Of a stretch of DNA of 31,811 bases, positions 1 through 31,005 are shown piece after piece. Source of the DNA: Candidatus Woesearchaeota archaeon (lineage in GTDB: Archaea; Nanobdellota; Nanobdellia; Woesearchaeales; GW2011-AR4); contig JACPMS010000042.1 in the NCBI GenBank assembly GCA_016185875.1, positions 1 through 31,811 on the forward strand, written 5' to 3'. The translations under genes and the position numbers were made by a program. The notes under the pieces are model-generated. The model had not been told where the DNA came from. It did no database searches and was given only the letters and a program-made list of their open reading frames with translations. Every line of letters begins with the position of its first letter. The stretch's first letter is position 1.

Positions 1-1543
1 TTGCTGAATCTCCTTCAACGCCTTCATGGGTTTGCAGGAATTGAACATAGATGTCGTGCTTCTCCTTCAAATCTTCTCCAAAGTATTTCTTGATTATTGC
101 AGTCACATTTTTTATGGCTTCCTTTGCAATGTCACCGAGCTTTCCAGTTGCTATAATCTCGCTTTCTTTTCCTCCTGGCGTTACTTCTGACTCAATAGGC
201 AGAATAATTCCTGAAAAAGGCGGCACAACTCCAATAACAGCAAGGCCGTTCACCCTTCCAACTCTTTTGCCGCTTGTGACAATAACCTCATATTCTTTCT
301 TTTGCTCGATATATTTGTCAGCCAGCTGCTGCTCAAGGGTCCTTGCAATTTTCTTGGCTCCAACAATGTGTTTTTTCATAACAAGCTTTGATTTTTCTTC
401 CATAGCCATGTCGCCAGCAGCCCTTATCAGGCCGCCAAGCTCCCTTAGCCTTAATGTTAAGTGCCCTTTTCTGTTGGCCCTTCTTCTTGCTTCTTCAACA
501 ATCGCCTCAACAGCTTCCCTGCTGAAATGCGGGATTTTTTTGTCTTTTACAACTTCCTGCGCAACAAAAACAGCAATTTTATCCCTGTTTTCTTCAGTAT
601 CTGGTATAGTTTCCTTCATGTAGACTTCATACCCATAGCCGGAAATCCTGCTTCTTAGCGCAGGATGCATGTGCTTGATTGTTTCAAGGTTGCCTGCAGC
701 GACCATTACAAAATCACACGGCACAGGCTCTGTCCTGACCATTGCGCCTGCGCTCCTCTCGCTCTGCCCGGTAATTGCAAATTTCTTTTCCTGCAAGGAA
801 GACAGCAATTCCTGCTGCGTTGCCGGCTGCAAAGTTGCAATCTCGTCAATAAATAGCACCCCCATATGGGATTTGTGGATCATCCCTGCAACAACCCTTT
901 CATGAGCTGGAGTGCCCAAGCCTCCGCTTTGGAAGGGGTCATGCAAGACATCCCCAAGCAAGGCGCCTGCATGCGCTCCGGTTGCATCATTGAAAGGAGA
1001 CTGTTTTCTCCTGTAATTGTCAACAATAAGCCTTGGTATCTTTACCCTGTTCTCCATTCTTTTGCCCAGGTTGAGGAATATTGCAAATGCAACCAAAAAA
1101 ACAGTGCCTCCCAAAAAGAATGCAGCAAACATTATGTCGGATTTGTAATAAGAGCGCGCCCACCACGGAGCAAACATCGCAATAAGCACCAGAATGAACA
1201 TAATGATGTTCTGGTTCTTGAACATGGTCATGCTTTGCAGCCTTGCCTTTGCTATCAAATCCCTGCCTTGCCCAGCTGGAATTGTCCTTATCAATGGCAT
1301 GTTCTCGTCATTTGGATTTGGGAATGAAACAATGTCGACAAGCTTTTCCATCGGCAAAAGCTCTGCCAAAGCAAAGCCAAGCATTGACTTGCCGGTGCCG
1401 GGCTCGCCAATCAACAGAACATGCCTTCTCTGCTGGGCTGCCTTCTTTACGACTTCAACACCTTCATCCTGGCCTATGACCTGGTCTATGAGCCTTTTAG
1501 GTATCTTTATATCTGCAGTTGAATTGAATTTTAAGCTAGCCAT
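1..1543 (-). CDS. lonB: ATP-dependent Lon protease, archaeal membrane-bound LonB type (3' end runs off the window)
   Basis: Not in the ORF track because it has no stop in the window. Manual translation from ATG at 1543 gives MASLKFNSTADIKIPKRLIDQVIGQ..., Walker A GEPGTGKS, a transmembrane insert, Walker B VLFIDEI and catalytic-Ser region HDIYVQFLQTHEGVEGDSA at the left edge. Confidence 0.95.
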   Translation of the reverse strand, partial: MASLKFNSTADIKIPKRLIDQVIGQDEGVEVVKKAAQQRRHVLLIGEPGTGKSMLGFALAELLPMEKLVDIVSFPNPNDENMPLIRTIPAGQGRDLIAKARLQSMTMFKNQNIIMFILVLIAMFAPWWARSYYKSDIMFAAFFLGGTVFLVAFAIFLNLGKRMENRVKIPRLIVDNYRRKQSPFNDATGAHAGALLGDVLHDPFQSGGLGTPAHERVVAGMIHKSHMGVLFIDEIATLQPATQQELLSSLQEKKFAITGQSERSAGAMVRTEPVPCDFVMVAAGNLETIKHMHPALRSRISGYGYEVYMKETIPDTEENRDKIAVFVAQEVVKDKKIPHFSREAVEAIVEEARRRANRKGHLTLRLRELGGLIRAAGDMAMEEKSKLVMKKHIVGAKKIARTLEQQLADKYIEQKKEYEVIVTSGKRVGRVNGLAVIGVVPPFSGIILPIESEVTPGGKESEIIATGKLGDIAKEAIKNVTAIIKKYFGEDLKEKHDIYVQFLQTHEGVEGDSA

Positions 1544-3594
1544 CCCGCTATTGTAAGTGTTTGTGCATTTTTAAAGGTTGCGTTTAATTCCTGCAAATCC
1601 TTAACCATATAAACCCCTTCCAATTCGTAGCCAATCTTTCTAAAGTATTCTCTCGCTCCGATTCCAGATAGAATAACCATCTTGTCTTTGCCGTTTTGCC
1701 TTGCAATCTCTTCTGCTTTAATTAAAAGAGACCTTCCTATGCCCTTGTGTTGAAAAGATGCTTCATCTTTTTTTCCAATCTGGACTGACGGGGAAAACAC
1801 ATGCAATTCCCTTATTAATGCAGAATCTTTTGTGATTTCATCCCTTAAAAACTGCGATGGAAACCTCAGCCTGCAAAAGCCAAACAAGACATCATTTGCC
1901 AAATCCTCTGCTGCAATGAAAATTTCTTTTCCTTGAGATGCTTCGTATTCCGTGACTGTTGTTTGGATATTATTAAAATTTATTTTTTTATTGCTTTTAA
2001 TGAAAAATCCAGCTTCCCTGCACCTAATGCATTTGCATTTGATATTTTTTTCAATGCAAATTTTTTCAACATACTGCCTCAAATTTGTTCGGTCAACTCC
2101 GGAAGCTGTCACAAATGTCGGTATGTCCCTTTGAACTCGCATTATCCTGCACCATTTTGGGACATGCTGCTTTGCCCCTGCTATTATTCCTGCTGCTTCT
2201 TTTGTGGTCAATGGAGTGAATTTTCCAGCTTTCCAATCCTCATATAATTTTGTTCCTTCCATCACCATGCAAGGGTAAATCTTCAGCATGTCTGGACGAT
2301 AATCGGGATTTTCAAATAATTGCTTTAAGCCATGCAAATCCATCTCTTTTGTCGTCAGAGGAAGCCCTGGCATATAATGGGCATTAATTTTGAATCCCAA
2401 GTCCTTCAAAATACTTATCGACTCGATGTTGTCATTGACTGTATTGCCCCTGCTAGTTGCTTCAAGAACATCGTCATAAATGCTTTGCACTCCAATTTCA
2501 ACCCTTGTGCACCCCAATTCCAGCATCAAATTCCCATGATAGAGCTTTCCAAAGTCGCTTTTTGTCTCTATAGTCAAGCCGACGCACCTTATAAAAGAAG
2601 TTTCATTTTCTTTCTGCATTTGTTTTAATGTAATATTTTTGTTGTCTTCATTATTTAATTTTTGTTGAATATGTTTAATTGAAGTGGTATTTGGATTTTG
2701 AATCGAATTTTCAATGATGCTTAGTTTTGTATTTTGTTCTGACACATTTATTTCATTTGCATTATTGTACTCTATCTTTCTTAACGCATTAAAATTTTGA
2801 ACATTATTTATTTTAAAAAAATCACCTATAAAAACATCATCTCCAAAAAACAAATACTCCGCTTTTTCCTTAACTTTCAAATTATTTAAATCCAAGTTTT
2901 TGATGTACAATAGTTTTTGCTGGGTTTTTTTAATTCTTTTATCCTCTTCGCTTAATACTCTGGGAAGTTCAAAGAATTTCTTGAATTTCAAAATATCCAG
3001 GTTTCCATCCTTGCTAAAAAACAATCTTGAGAAGTCGTTCATCGCCTTCAGCGCGTATTTGACAAAATATTCCTGATAAGCCTTTGGGAAAAAAGTGAAT
3101 GTCCCGCCCTGAATGATTATTTCAGCCTTGTCCGGCACTCTGCCCATGGCAACATAATGCTCAAGCCTGTTGAACACAATCAGGTAAGGGTCATAACTGT
3201 TTCTTATCGCCCTTCTTGTTGACGGCTCTTTTCCTGTATAGCTTTGGGGAACATTGCCAAATGCAGAGCCAGGCCCGCCAGGGCAGTACGTGCAAGGGCC
3301 GATGCCCTGCATGGTATGGGGGCAAGGATAAGGCTCTGACATCAATGCAATTGGCGCAACCCCGCTTATTGTCCTTACTGGCTTTAGGGAAAGCAGCTCC
3401 TTGAATTTTTCCCTTTCATTATCAGAAGCTGCAAGGTAAATATCGGCATTTTTCGGTATTTGTTTTAAGTTCGCCTTTGACTTATATTTACTCAATATTT
3501 TTAATTTTGTTTGGGTTAATTCATGTTGTGTTTTAATACTATTTTTTTTTAGTTCTTCTAGTATTTCAACACATACTTGTTGGAATTTGTCCAT
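1531..3594 (-). CDS. elp3: Elp3 tRNA wobble-uridine acetyltransferase (radical SAM + GNAT) with an AT-rich in-frame insertion
   Basis: CPH...CTYCPGG cluster motif, QSYTGKEP, RVEIGVQS, KIYPC, RVQRDIP, ALIRELHV, FQHKGIG. Overlaps the lonB start by 13 nt. Confidence 0.95.
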   Translation of the reverse strand: MDKFQQVCVEILEELKKNSIKTQHELTQTKLKILSKYKSKANLKQIPKNADIYLAASDNEREKFKELLSLKPVRTISGVAPIALMSEPYPCPHTMQGIGPCTYCPGGPGSAFGNVPQSYTGKEPSTRRAIRNSYDPYLIVFNRLEHYVAMGRVPDKAEIIIQGGTFTFFPKAYQEYFVKYALKAMNDFSRLFFSKDGNLDILKFKKFFELPRVLSEEDKRIKKTQQKLLYIKNLDLNNLKVKEKAEYLFFGDDVFIGDFFKINNVQNFNALRKIEYNNANEINVSEQNTKLSIIENSIQNPNTTSIKHIQQKLNNEDNKNITLKQMQKENETSFIRCVGLTIETKSDFGKLYHGNLMLELGCTRVEIGVQSIYDDVLEATSRGNTVNDNIESISILKDLGFKINAHYMPGLPLTTKEMDLHGLKQLFENPDYRPDMLKIYPCMVMEGTKLYEDWKAGKFTPLTTKEAAGIIAGAKQHVPKWCRIMRVQRDIPTFVTASGVDRTNLRQYVEKICIEKNIKCKCIRCREAGFFIKSNKKINFNNIQTTVTEYEASQGKEIFIAAEDLANDVLFGFCRLRFPSQFLRDEITKDSALIRELHVFSPSVQIGKKDEASFQHKGIGRSLLIKAEEIARQNGKDKMVILSGIGAREYFRKIGYELEGVYMVKDLQELNATFKNAQTLTIAGWLA

Positions 3595-30671: not shown

Positions 30672-30701
30672 TATAGCTATTATTACCACCCCTTTTTTGA
30701 A

Positions 30702-30974
30702 CGCCAAGGCCCGGATTACTTGGAATTGTTTAACGCCATAGCTCGAATTCTGCGAATTCGCGGACCTCGTGCATAGCCCGAGGTTTCGAGACCGCCGCAC
30801 TACCAGATTATGCGACAGTGGCACAACAATTCCAAGTTCCCAAAAACCTCTCAGTTTTTGCGATGAACCGAGAAGCCCTTGCGGGCAGCAGTTCTCTTGA
30901 AAAATTCGAGACTGCCGCAATATTCTGATTGTGAGGCTCGTTCCTCGCCAACTGCCAGATTCTGCCACCTTGGC
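30702..30974 (-). tRNA. tRNA-Ser(CGA) with three introns (20/21 at 30953-30922; 37/38 at 30904-30894; 57/58 at 30863-30718)
   Basis: Acceptor GCCAAGG/CCTTGGC, G73, anticodon stem GCAGT/ACTGC, variable arm GCCC-GCAA-GGGC, T stem CTCGG/CCGGG. Splicing gives an 84-nt cloverleaf with a TTCAAAT loop. Confidence 0.88.
30734..30822 (-). ncRNA. T-armless tRNA-Ser(CGA)-like element nested in the T-loop intron
   Basis: 31 of the first 38 nt match the spliced host tRNA. Enclosed by a perfect 12-bp stem CTTGGAATTGTT/AACAATTCCAAG. Confidence 0.7.
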
Positions 30975-30997: not shown

Positions 30998-31005
30998 CTT
31001 TAAAA
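30998..31005 (-). promoter_or_regulatory. TATA box of tRNA-Ser
   Basis: AAAAG-TTTTAAAG on the minus strand at -31..-24 relative to tRNA position 1. Confidence 0.6.

What the first reader, a model, noticed from the sequence alone, without database searches (positions are those of the whole stretch)
30715..30872. Possible intron-within-intron (ordered two-step splicing) in the tRNA-Ser T-loop
Seen in sequence: a single BHB cannot join TTCA to AAT, because GGTT and CCAA are not antiparallel complements. The duplicated GGAA-CTT-GGAA allows an alternative fold (TTG/TAA helix, AAG bulge, GGAA/TTCC helix, loop) that would excise 30834-30720. This leaves AACT-GT-AAT, which completes an outer GGTT/AACT motif with CAT and GTA bulges around the CAAAAAC/GTTTTTG hairpin. 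The second cut gives exactly the canonical TTCAAAT loop. Inference: a nested twintron, competing with the more stable 12-bp stem that could act as a splicing switch. The 12-bp complement also resembles split-tRNA pairing arms.
Basis: inference. Interest (0 to 1): 0.75.

Follow-up and report, generated by a model that had tools for sequence, protein, structure and literature searches.

The report
tRNA intron built from hairpin repeat
The supposed intron-inside-an-intron is a small two-hairpin repeat element in the T-loop of a serine tRNA gene that carries the remains of a second serine tRNA; related genomes do not back the proposed two-step splicing, and how the insert is removed is still open.

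Summary
The sequence features are real. On the minus strand lies an intact tRNA-Ser(CGA) gene (30974-30702) with three introns. The 146-nt T-loop intron (30863-30718, position 57/58) cannot form a single canonical BHB: GGTT against CCAA gives 0 of 4 pairs. The alternative GGAA/TTCC motif exists with correct geometry.

Comparison with relatives changes the reading. The intron is exactly one copy of a dispersed twin-hairpin repeat, matched in 41 of 43 genomes of the genus and mostly intergenic. Its second hairpin is the "12-bp stem". In four relatives the loop of that hairpin holds a complete second tRNA-Ser. Here the inner gene is a truncated relic that keeps its own BHB intron.

His inner BHB has these weaknesses:
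- It costs about 22 kcal/mol.
- It shows no compensatory change.
- It is equally available in 19 of 23 non-tRNA copies.
- It fails in two T-loop homologues (2/4 and 3/4 pairs).

Only the 5' half-site is conserved in every T-loop case: GGUU/AACU, a CA|U bulge and hairpin 1. Ordered two-step splicing is therefore unlikely (about 0.1). One-pass excision by a relaxed EndA plus RtcB is my best guess and is unproven.

This scan has already noted hairpin repeats in DPANN tRNA introns on other genomes.

The parts
30999..31005 (-). TATA-like box TTTTAAA, centred about 28 nt upstream of tRNA position 1. It is the only promoter-like element for the whole nested unit.
   Evidence: Read directly from the sequence. 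No comparable box lies in front of the inner tRNA-like element. Inference only.
30702..30974 (-). tRNA-Ser(CGA) gene, 273 nt, with four exons totalling 86 nt: 30974-30953, 30922-30905, 30893-30864 and 30717-30702.
   Evidence: ARAGORN calls tRNA-Ser(cga) once the three introns are removed. It is missed by ARAGORN and Rfam on the raw DNA. The exons are nearly identical to intron-poor orthologues.
30923..30952 (-). D-loop intron, 30 nt, with a strict hBHBh' motif (central CTGG/TCAG).
   Evidence: BHB scan gives h1=3, h2=3. The central helix covaries with relatives: CCGG/TCGG, CTGG/CCAG.
30894..30904 (-). Canonical 37/38 intron, 11 nt, relaxed motif of bulge-helix-loop type.
   Evidence: Sequence reading. 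ARAGORN result after its removal.
30718..30863 (-). T-loop intron at 57/58, 146 nt. It equals one twin-hairpin repeat element with an expanded second hairpin.
   Evidence: Filled and empty sites in relatives. DNA joint 30717|30864. Homology to the repeat family.
30838..30863 (-). Hairpin 1 (T-CGCAAAAAC / GTTTTTGGG-A, loop TGAGAG). It could serve as helix H2 of the 5' half-BHB.
   Evidence: Folds. Family covariation: alignment A1 columns 2-12 with 21-30.
30835..30838 (-). AACT box between the two hairpins. It is complementary to exon GGTT (positions 52-55), which places CA|T in a 3-nt bulge.
   Evidence: 4 of 4 pairs in all T-loop cases, against 0-2 of 4 at the 23 non-tRNA insertion sites. Forming it costs +4.6 to +10.8 kcal/mol against the T-arm minimum-energy fold.
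30825..30837 (-). Hairpin 2 (helix X), 5' strand ACTTGGAATTGTT.
   Evidence: Pair probability 0.92-1.0. Compensatory changes in G006, G010, G044 and G261 and across the family.
30718..30730 (-). Hairpin 2 (helix X), 3' strand AACAATTCCAAGT.
   Evidence: Same evidence as for the 5' strand.
30734..30822 (-). Truncated inner tRNA-Ser(CGA) relic. It keeps acceptor 5' strand GCCACTG, the D arm, the anticodon stem 5' strand, the loop CTCGAA, an intron and then only A-TGGCG. About 40 nt (positions 39 to about 68) are missing.
   Evidence: ARAGORN finds no tRNA here. It is 88% identical over 84 nt to the free-standing gene of G028. The same slot holds complete tRNAs in G006, G010, G016 and G044.
30740..30784 (-). 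Relic 45-nt 37/38 intron of the inner gene, with an intact BHB core (CTCG/CGAG, bulges AAA and CTA). This is a literal intron inside the intron.
   Evidence: Homologous to the introns of G028 and G035 tRNA-Ser genes. ARAGORN calls a 45-nt intron in G028.

Best explanation
The stretch is the T-arm of a live, triple-intron tRNA-Ser(CGA) gene of a small groundwater DPANN archaeon (Nanobdellota-like).

It is exactly one copy of a dispersed twin-hairpin repeat, built as T-[hairpin 1]-A-[hairpin 2]-T and inserted between A57 and A58 without target duplication. The top of hairpin 2 carries a second tRNA-Ser gene. That inner gene is complete in relatives. Here it is reduced to a 5' half plus its own BHB intron.

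The GGAA-CTT-GGAA repeat and the 12-bp stem are the conserved GGGAACT box and the foot of hairpin 2.

In the lowest-energy fold the T-stem is closed. The mature loop bases UUCA and AAU are the only single strands, and the two hairpins abut. Both splice sites therefore sit at hairpin feet.

Most likely (inferred, about 0.4-0.45) the whole insert is removed in one pass by the lineage's single-subunit, relaxed-specificity EndA, and RtcB seals the ends. The 5' site would be set by the conserved half-BHB: exon GGUU with intron AACU, a CA|U bulge and hairpin 1. The 3' site, AGU|A at the foot of hairpin 2, would be set non-canonically, with hairpin 2 looped out or stacked.

The identity and anatomy are shown, with confidence about 0.9. 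The cleavage mechanism is not shown.
For: Gene:
- ARAGORN calls tRNA-Ser(cga) after the introns are removed.
- The D-loop BHB covaries with relatives, and the exons are near-identical to intron-poor orthologues. G006's outer copy has a compensated anticodon stem, with one T-T mismatch, which points to selection after the shared insertion.

Repeat family:
- BLAST matches in 41 of 43 genus genomes.
- 23 compact copies of 48-55 nt with T...T ends; 22 are intergenic.
- Twin-hairpin structure is 97.7% paired, with 8 pairs changed on both sides, and 0 of 500 shuffles reach this.

Nested tRNAs:
- G006, G010, G016 and G044 hold a complete tRNA in the hairpin-2 loop at 57/58.
- G261 has a bare 51-nt twin hairpin at 57/58 and a complete tRNA in another intron.

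Folds and half-site:
- The three-way-junction fold is the minimum-energy fold in all five T-arms.
- The GGUU/AACU half-site scores 4 of 4 only in T-loop cases.

Splicing toolkit:
- EndA catalytic subunit is present (full-length in the relatives searched; only a fragment cut by a contig end in G000), with best PDB match the N. equitans alpha subunit.
- RtcB is present in all five genomes searched.
- DPANN alpha4-type EndAs with the L3 loop are linked to disrupted tRNA genes (PMC5829648).
- Splice sites can be independent hBH/HBh' units (PMC4090602).
Against: - No RNA data exist for this organism, so neither splicing nor the cut sites are shown.
- The 3' site fits no described BHB, hBH, HBh' or BHL geometry.
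- The GGUU/AACU conformer lies 4.6-10.8 kcal/mol above the T-arm minimum-energy fold.
- AACT is conserved in all copies regardless of context, so it was not shaped by the tRNA.
- A second EndA subunit was not found, and EndA specificity is unknown.
- tRNA-Ser(CGA) may be dispensable if a UGA isoacceptor reads UCG, so the outer gene could be dead despite looking intact.
- Logan contigs did not give one piece spanning the inner relic, so the assembly across 30740-30795 is not independently verified.
Confidence: 0.5

Rival explanations
1. Hairpin 2 with its cargo is an inner intron. It is cut out first at an alternative BHB: UUG/UAA, GGAA/UUCC, with bulges CU|U and AA|G. Ligation then creates AACU-GU|A, which completes the outer BHB for a second cut. 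The 12-bp stem acts as a switch.
For: - The geometry is exact in G000.
- The same formal motif can be drawn in G010, G044 and G016, and in 19 of 23 compact copies.
- After step 1 the outer motif would be a good BHB lacking only the outer helix, like G030's 53/54 intron.
- The chance of such a motif at one pre-chosen pair of sites is about 0.25%.
Against: - It fails in G261 (2 of 4 pairs) and is weakened in G006 (3 of 4). Both are T-loop cases with otherwise intact outer tRNAs.
- There are no compensatory changes, and it is still 71-79% pairable when slid by one base. This is a by-product of U-tract and purine-tract composition.
- Its 'bulges' are conserved and covarying pairs of hairpin 2.
- It also requires melting the foot of hairpin 1, and it costs +21.9 kcal/mol with ensemble probability about 0.
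- It is equally common in copies that need no splicing.
- No outer-only intron was found in 70 family genomes.
Confidence: 0.12
2. The T-loop insert is never removed. The outer tRNA-Ser has been non-functional since a selfish repeat landed in it. In relatives it survives only as promoter, leader and trailer for the inner tRNA. In this genome both copies are dead.
For: - The repeat is mostly intergenic. The one copy found inside an ORF is 54 nt and in frame, as expected if it is not spliced.
- There is no canonical 3' splice motif.
- In G016 the outer gene has lost its anticodon and variable arms while the inner gene is intact.
- The CGA isoacceptor may be dispensable.
- No other tRNA-Ser(CGA) was found in the 63%-complete assembly.
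Against: - The outer genes of G000, G006, G010, G044 and G261 keep complete cloverleaves and matched but different acceptor stems.
- They also keep working-looking BHBs in their other introns and compensated stem changes across three families.
- Among several hundred genomes searched, the element in a T-loop was found only where GGTT-CA precedes it, which gives a proper half-BHB.
- Inner and outer acceptor stems are kept orthogonal, as expected if both must fold.
Confidence: 0.15
3. The two hairpins are cut at their feet by the tRNA end-processing enzymes. RNase P would cut 5' of hairpin 1. RNase Z would cut after the single base that follows hairpin 2. The nick in the T-loop is then sealed by a 5'-P/3'-OH RNA ligase.
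For: - Both splice sites coincide with helix feet in the minimum-energy fold.
- RNase P RNA and RNase Z are present.
- In relatives these enzymes must in any case cut inside hairpin 2 to free the inner tRNA.
Against: - No ATP-dependent RNA ligase (PF09414) was found in G000, G006, G010 or G044; only G261 has one.
- RtcB needs the opposite end chemistry.
- The hairpins lack T-loop-like features, and no precedent is known to me.
Confidence: 0.05

Closest known systems
Non-canonical, multiple BHB introns of archaeal tRNA genes (Thermoproteales, ARMAN/DPANN), including 'transposed' introns (Marck and Grosjean 2003; Fujishima 2010, as summarised in PMC4090602)
   Same: Several introns in one tRNA gene, including D-loop and T-loop positions. 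EndA and RtcB are present. The same intron sequence occurs at unrelated sites. Splice sites may be independent hBH/HBh' units.
   Different: The two ends of the T-loop intron cannot form one BHB, and the 3' site fits no described motif. The intron is exactly one copy of a mostly intergenic repeat. It carries a tRNA gene.
Split and tri-split tRNAs of Nanoarchaeum equitans and Caldivirga (Randau 2005, via PMC4090602)
   Same: A long helix of complementary arms lies next to the splice sites. In relatives, release of the inner tRNA by RNase P and RNase Z would leave two outer halves held by that helix. EndA is closest to the N. equitans alpha subunit.
   Different: This is one contiguous gene with one promoter-like box. 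The break is at 57/58, not 37/38. There is no relaxed BHB between the arms and the tRNA body.
Box C/D sRNA nested in the archaeal tRNA-Trp intron (PMC4090602)
   Same: A second functional RNA is encoded inside a tRNA intron and co-transcribed with the host tRNA.
   Different: The passenger here is a full tRNA of the same isoacceptor (a relic in this genome). It sits in a T-loop intron, not at 37/38.
Twintrons of Euglena plastids and euglenid nuclear genes (my own knowledge; the term appears in PMC3935182)
   Different: Those are group II/III or spliceosomal introns with demonstrated sequential splicing. Here the inner splice motif is not conserved, and no intermediates are known.
REP / BIME / REPIN and MITE-like palindromic repeats of bacteria
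   Same: Short, multi-copy, hairpin pairs that are mostly intergenic, insert precisely, and show stem covariation.
   Different: No transposase has been linked. The host is archaeal. One copy sits in a tRNA T-loop and carries a tRNA gene.

Membership tests
tRNA-Ser (class II tRNA gene) | Cloverleaf with a 7-bp acceptor stem, D arm, anticodon arm, long variable arm, T arm with GGTTCAAATCC, and G73 | tested here: met
   The 86-nt spliced sequence is called tRNA-Ser(cga) by ARAGORN. The inner element 30822-30734 fails the same test.
Strict BHB (hBHBh') intron | A 4-bp central helix between the exon bases -6..-3 of the 5' site and the intron bases -6..-3 of the 3' site, flanked by two 3-nt bulges | tested here: not met
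   GGTT against CCAA gives 0 of 4 pairs, and no motif joins the two true sites. By contrast, the D-loop intron of the same gene meets it.
Strict BHB (hBHBh') intron | EndA and RtcB are encoded | tested here: met
   EndA is full-length in G006, G010, G016 and G028 and is cut by a contig end in G000. RtcB is in G000 and four relatives.
Relaxed independent splice sites (hBH / HBh' / BHL) | The 5' site lies in a 3-nt bulge, cut after the second base, between two helices | tested here: met
   GGUU/AACU helix, CA|U bulge and hairpin 1 are present in G000, G006, G010, G044 and G261. This is not the minimum-energy fold: it costs +4.6 to +10.8 kcal/mol.
Relaxed independent splice sites (hBH / HBh' / BHL) | The 3' site lies in a 3-nt bulge or loop at the ruler distance from the central helix | tested here: not met
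   Hairpin 2 (with its cargo) lies between AACU and AGU|A. In the minimum-energy fold the cut is at the foot of hairpin 2.
Relaxed independent splice sites (hBH / HBh' / BHL) | Actual cleavage by EndA at these sites | not testable with these tools
   No RNA runs hold this sequence.
Twintron (ordered two-step splicing) | The inner intron has its own complete and conserved splice motif | tested here: not met
   The motif is formally present in G000. It has only 2 of 4 pairs in G261 and 3 of 4 in G006, and shows 0 double-sided changes. It is equally present in 19 of 23 non-tRNA copies.
Twintron (ordered two-step splicing) | The outer intron exists on its own in some relatives | tested here: not met
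   The pattern for hairpin 1 + AACT + RY + AAT occurs at background level in 70 family genomes. It was not found in those searched.
Twintron (ordered two-step splicing) | A splicing intermediate with the inner intron removed | not testable with these tools
   No RNA data.
Split tRNA (N. equitans type) | The halves are on separate genes, each with its own promoter | tested here: not met
   This is one contiguous 273-nt gene with a single TATA-like box upstream.
Dispersed twin-hairpin repeat (REP/MITE-like) | Many dispersed copies with conserved ends and covarying stems | tested here: met
   41 of 43 genomes have matches. 23 copies were extracted. Covariation was counted. Related subfamilies occur in G000.
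Dispersed twin-hairpin repeat (REP/MITE-like) | Precise insertion without target-site duplication | tested here: met
   The filled site TTCA[T...T]AAT compares with the empty site TTCAAAT in G002, G008, G026 and in a metagenome contig.
Dispersed twin-hairpin repeat (REP/MITE-like) | An associated transposase (RAYT or TnpA type) | not tested
   Not searched.

The most novel reading that the evidence does not exclude
The twin-hairpin element is a context-independent, structure-defined RNA-level intron. It would be cut at the feet of its two abutting hairpins, which is why its genomic ends coincide exactly with the tRNA splice sites. It can carry a whole tRNA gene as cargo in hairpin 2. That would make it a mobile intron that both seeds new archaeal tRNA introns and nests or duplicates tRNA genes.
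Probability: 0.12. Interest if true: 0.9.

Novelty: new variant of a known kind. Interest (0 to 1): 0.6.

Why it matters
How archaeal tRNA genes gain introns at non-canonical sites is unresolved.

Here a T-loop intron has ends identical to those of a dispersed repeat. It lacks a canonical BHB. In relatives it carries a second, complete tRNA of the same isoacceptor, with an orthogonal acceptor stem. I found no description of a tRNA gene nested in an archaeal tRNA intron in the papers searched.

The locus gives a small, concrete substrate for experiment: the 68-nt T-arm of G261 and the 163-nt T-arm of this genome. With it one can ask what the relaxed DPANN endonuclease really recognises. One can also ask whether repeat insertion is the route of intron gain and of tRNA gene nesting.

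The reciprocal decay seen here would show that both copies work from one promoter. In this genome the inner gene is dead. In G016 the outer gene appears dead. In G006, G010 and G044 both look intact.

Tried and rejected
- ARAGORN and Rfam on the raw DNA find nothing at the locus.
- Exact-pattern scans of metagenome contigs and genome contigs with a 15-mer were too unspecific.
- An 11-mer pattern in the genus matched at control level. It was useful only together with the BLAST hits.
- No RNA runs were found. Laying DNA contigs gave the intron-less allele but no piece across the inner relic.
- A permissive BHB scan returns about 77 formal motifs in the 273-nt precursor and is uninformative on its own.
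- I considered single-BHB alternatives. These were shifted splice positions, helix X as H2, an exon-exon GGUU/AAUC helix, and a second AACU in the hairpin-1 loop pairing with CUUCUC-GGUU (G000 and G006 only). None places both true sites in canonical bulges.
- The RNase P / RNase Z plus ligase route was weakened by the missing PF09414 ligase.
- No hairpin-1-only intron was found.
- A search of G261's family (7 genomes) added no case.
- A second EndA subunit was not found by protein search at E <= 1.
- Literature searches for nested tRNA, twintron and DPANN tRNA introns found no prior description.

Full report
**What is at the coordinates**

Read on the minus strand, 30974-30702 is a tRNA-Ser(CGA) gene of 273 nt. 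ARAGORN and Rfam miss it on the raw DNA. Three inserts interrupt it:
- a 30-nt D-loop intron (30952-30923);
- an 11-nt intron at 37/38 (30904-30894);
- a 146-nt T-loop intron between A57 and A58 (30863-30718).

With these removed, ARAGORN calls an 86-nt tRNA-Ser(cga). The D-loop intron has a strict BHB. Its central helix covaries with relatives: CTGG/TCAG here, CCGG/TCGG or CTGG/CCAG elsewhere. That also fixes the cutting rule used below: four pairs, then a 3-nt bulge cut after its second base.

The genome is a 770-kb assembly in 95 contigs, 63% complete. It comes from groundwater metagenomes. A neighbouring protein's nearest Atlas cluster is mostly Nanobdellota.

**Checking the observation**

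- Exon GGTT (52-55) and intron CCAA (-6..-3 from the 3' site) make 0 of 4 antiparallel pairs. No BHB in my scan joins the two true sites.
- The alternative motif is TTG/TAA, GGAA/TTCC, with bulges CT|T and AA|G. It has correct geometry and would excise 30834-30720, leaving GGAACT|GTAAT.
- The 12-bp stem (13 bp with an A-T closing pair) dominates the ensemble, with pair probability 0.92-1.0. Forcing the alternative fold costs 21.9 kcal/mol.

The intron ends are fixed independently. G002, G008 and G026 have the same gene with an uninterrupted TTCAAAT loop. A DNA contig in one groundwater run joins 30717 directly to 30864.

**What the intron is**

BLAST against 60 relatives and reading of the loci gave the key result.
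- In G006 and G010 the same T-loop site holds the same 5' hairpin, the same GGGAACT box and a helix X. Helix X flanks a complete second tRNA-Ser(CGA) (ARAGORN).
- In G016 the inner tRNA is intact, while the outer gene has lost its anticodon and variable arms.
- In G044, from another family, an outer tRNA-Ser(UGA) with three introns holds a complete inner tRNA-Ser(UGA) in the same slot.
- In G261, from a third family, the T-loop 57/58 site holds a bare 51-nt two-hairpin insert. A complete inner tRNA-Ser(UGA) sits in another intron, again between 12-bp arms.

Inner and outer genes share body and anticodon but have different, internally matched acceptor stems.

In the window the inner element (30822-30734) is 88% identical over 84 nt to the free-standing gene of G028. 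It has lost about 40 nt (positions 39 to about 68). It keeps that gene's 45-nt 37/38 intron with an intact BHB core, CTCG/CGAG (30784-30740). So there is literally an intron inside the intron, but as a relic of a dead passenger gene.

**The intron is a copy of a dispersed repeat**

Parts of the intron (5' hairpin, GGGAACT, start of helix X) also matched places outside tRNA genes.
- An 80-nt query from one such copy matched 41 of 43 genomes of the genus, often many times per genome.
- I extracted 23 compact copies of 48-55 nt. Each reads T, hairpin 1 (CCTAAAAAAT...ATTTTTGGG), A, hairpin 2 (ACTTGAAAAT...ATTTTCAAGT).
- 22 are intergenic. One is a 54-nt in-frame, stop-free insert in a trm1-like ORF.
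- RNAalifold and pair counting give 97.7% paired cells, 8 pairs with changes on both sides, and 0 of 500 shuffles as good.
- Related subfamilies occur in the window's own genome.

The T-loop intron begins with the first T of the element and ends with its last T. Helix X is hairpin 2, with the tRNA (or its relic) in its loop. Earlier notes of this scan describe similar twin-hairpin repeats in tRNA introns of other DPANN genomes. I reached the family independently and treat those notes only as agreement.

**Testing the two-step model**

1. The proposed bulges CTT and AAG are the second to fourth pairs of hairpin 2. They are invariant or covarying: CTC/GAG in G010 and G261, and columns 35-57 show UA 22, CG 1.
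2. The proposed central helix GGAA with the four bases before AAG is pairable in 97% of cells. It has no double-sided change and remains 79% and 71% pairable when slid by one base. It pairs one U-tract-plus-purine strand with another, which is a composition effect.
3. The full inner BHB (4 of 4 central plus 3 of 3 outer pairs) can be drawn in 19 of 23 copies that lie outside tRNAs. It is therefore not a feature kept for T-loop splicing.
4. Among the six T-loop cases it is 4 of 4 in G000, G010, G044 and G016 (outer gene dead). It is 3 of 4 in G006 and 2 of 4 in G261, whose outer tRNA is otherwise intact.
5. It needs the feet of both hairpins melted, at +21.9 kcal/mol.
6. Formal BHBs of this quality are as common in shuffled sequence: 77 real against 73 shuffled.
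7. A hairpin-1-only intron, the expected outer intron, was not found above background in 70 genomes of the family.

I put the two-step route at about 0.12.

**What is conserved, and the likely mechanism**

In all five T-arms folded alone, the minimum-energy structure is the same three-way junction. The T-stem is closed, UUCA is single-stranded, hairpin 1 and hairpin 2 abut, and AAU is single-stranded. Both splice sites lie at hairpin feet, and the mature loop bases are already in place.

The one canonical element is the 5' half-site. Exon GGUU pairs with the AACU between the hairpins, which puts CA|U in a 3-nt bulge next to hairpin 1.
- It is 4 of 4 in every T-loop case and 0-2 of 4 at the 23 other insertion sites. 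This suggests that only an insertion creating it survives in a tRNA.
- It costs 4.6-10.8 kcal/mol.

The 3' site (AGU|A) fits no described motif, because hairpin 2 lies between AACU and the cut.

The genomes encode one EndA catalytic subunit of about 200 aa, closest to N. equitans alpha. They also encode RtcB, RNase P RNA and RNase Z. Four of five lack a PF09414 ligase.

From the literature:
- DPANN alpha4-type enzymes with an L3 loop accompany heavy tRNA gene disruption (PMC5829648).
- Splice sites can act as independent hBH/HBh' units (PMC4090602).

My best inference, at about 0.4-0.45, is one-pass excision by a relaxed EndA, with hairpin 2 looped out or stacked, followed by RtcB ligation.

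The outer gene being dead is a real rival, at about 0.15. Against it stand the intact and compensated outer genes in five genomes of three families.

**Novelty and limits**

I found no paper describing a tRNA gene nested in an archaeal tRNA intron, or a twintron of this type.

No RNA data exist, so nothing about cleavage is shown. The collection scans were wasted on too short a pattern. The assembly across the inner relic is not independently confirmed. A sibling report on the nested tRNA-like element exists and was withheld.

Noticed in passing
L353 (G261:C44) about 1100-1580, plus strand: The outer tRNA-Ser(UGA) has three introns. One lies between the variable arm and the T-stem. It holds a complete second tRNA-Ser(UGA) flanked by the 12-bp arms GAGAATTTCCCT/AGGGAAATTCTC. 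Nesting of tRNA genes is therefore not tied to the T-loop site.
   Followed up: partly
L309 (G017:C25) 480-533, plus strand: A 54-nt copy of the twin hairpin lies inside a trm1-like ORF, in frame and without stops (18 extra residues). It is the only one of 23 copies found inside a long ORF.
   Followed up: partly
23 compact copies in loci L282-L339: The two bases after the element are purines in 20 of 23 copies, mostly AA. The five bases before it often read CAANN, resembling the element's own end CAAGT. This is a possible target or cleavage-site signal for whatever moves the element.
   Followed up: no
L314, L315, L325, L326, L300, L339, L327 and L328, flanks of the element: A second recurrent motif, AAAAGCTTGACCAAAA, lies next to many copies. 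Small hairpin modules (CAACGG..CCGTTGAC, GGCATAAAGCC) recur both in tRNA introns (G026 37/38 intron, decayed G016 outer gene) and beside the repeats. Introns here look modular.
   Followed up: no
window 30852-30858 with 30865-30877 (minus strand): In G000 and G006 only, the loop of hairpin 1 plus a second AACU (AACUGAGAGG) is complementary to exon CUUCUCGGUU. This gives a 10-bp exon-intron helix that competes with hairpin 1 in the full-length minimum-energy fold.
   Followed up: partly
window 30685-30700 (minus strand), also in G026, G028 and G008 loci: A conserved AAAGGGG(T/C)GG lies just downstream of tRNA-Ser genes. It looks like the ribosome-binding site of a syntenic downstream gene on the same strand.
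   Followed up: no
L276 (G010:C6) 216-1788: The EndA gene (200 aa) overlaps, tail to head on opposite strands, an RNase Z-like metallo-beta-lactamase gene (369 aa). G006 shows a second, partial EndA-like match at a contig end.
   Followed up: no
G000 contigs C9:595-641, C47:7421-7467, C1:4655-4701, C85:6875-6930, C62:6454-6496: The window's own genome holds other subfamilies of twin hairpins: CAAAAAT..ATTTTTG followed by GAAAAT..ATTTTC, with different linkers. The exact GGGAACT subfamily is rare there (the tRNA intron and C6:2489-2526).
   Followed up: partly
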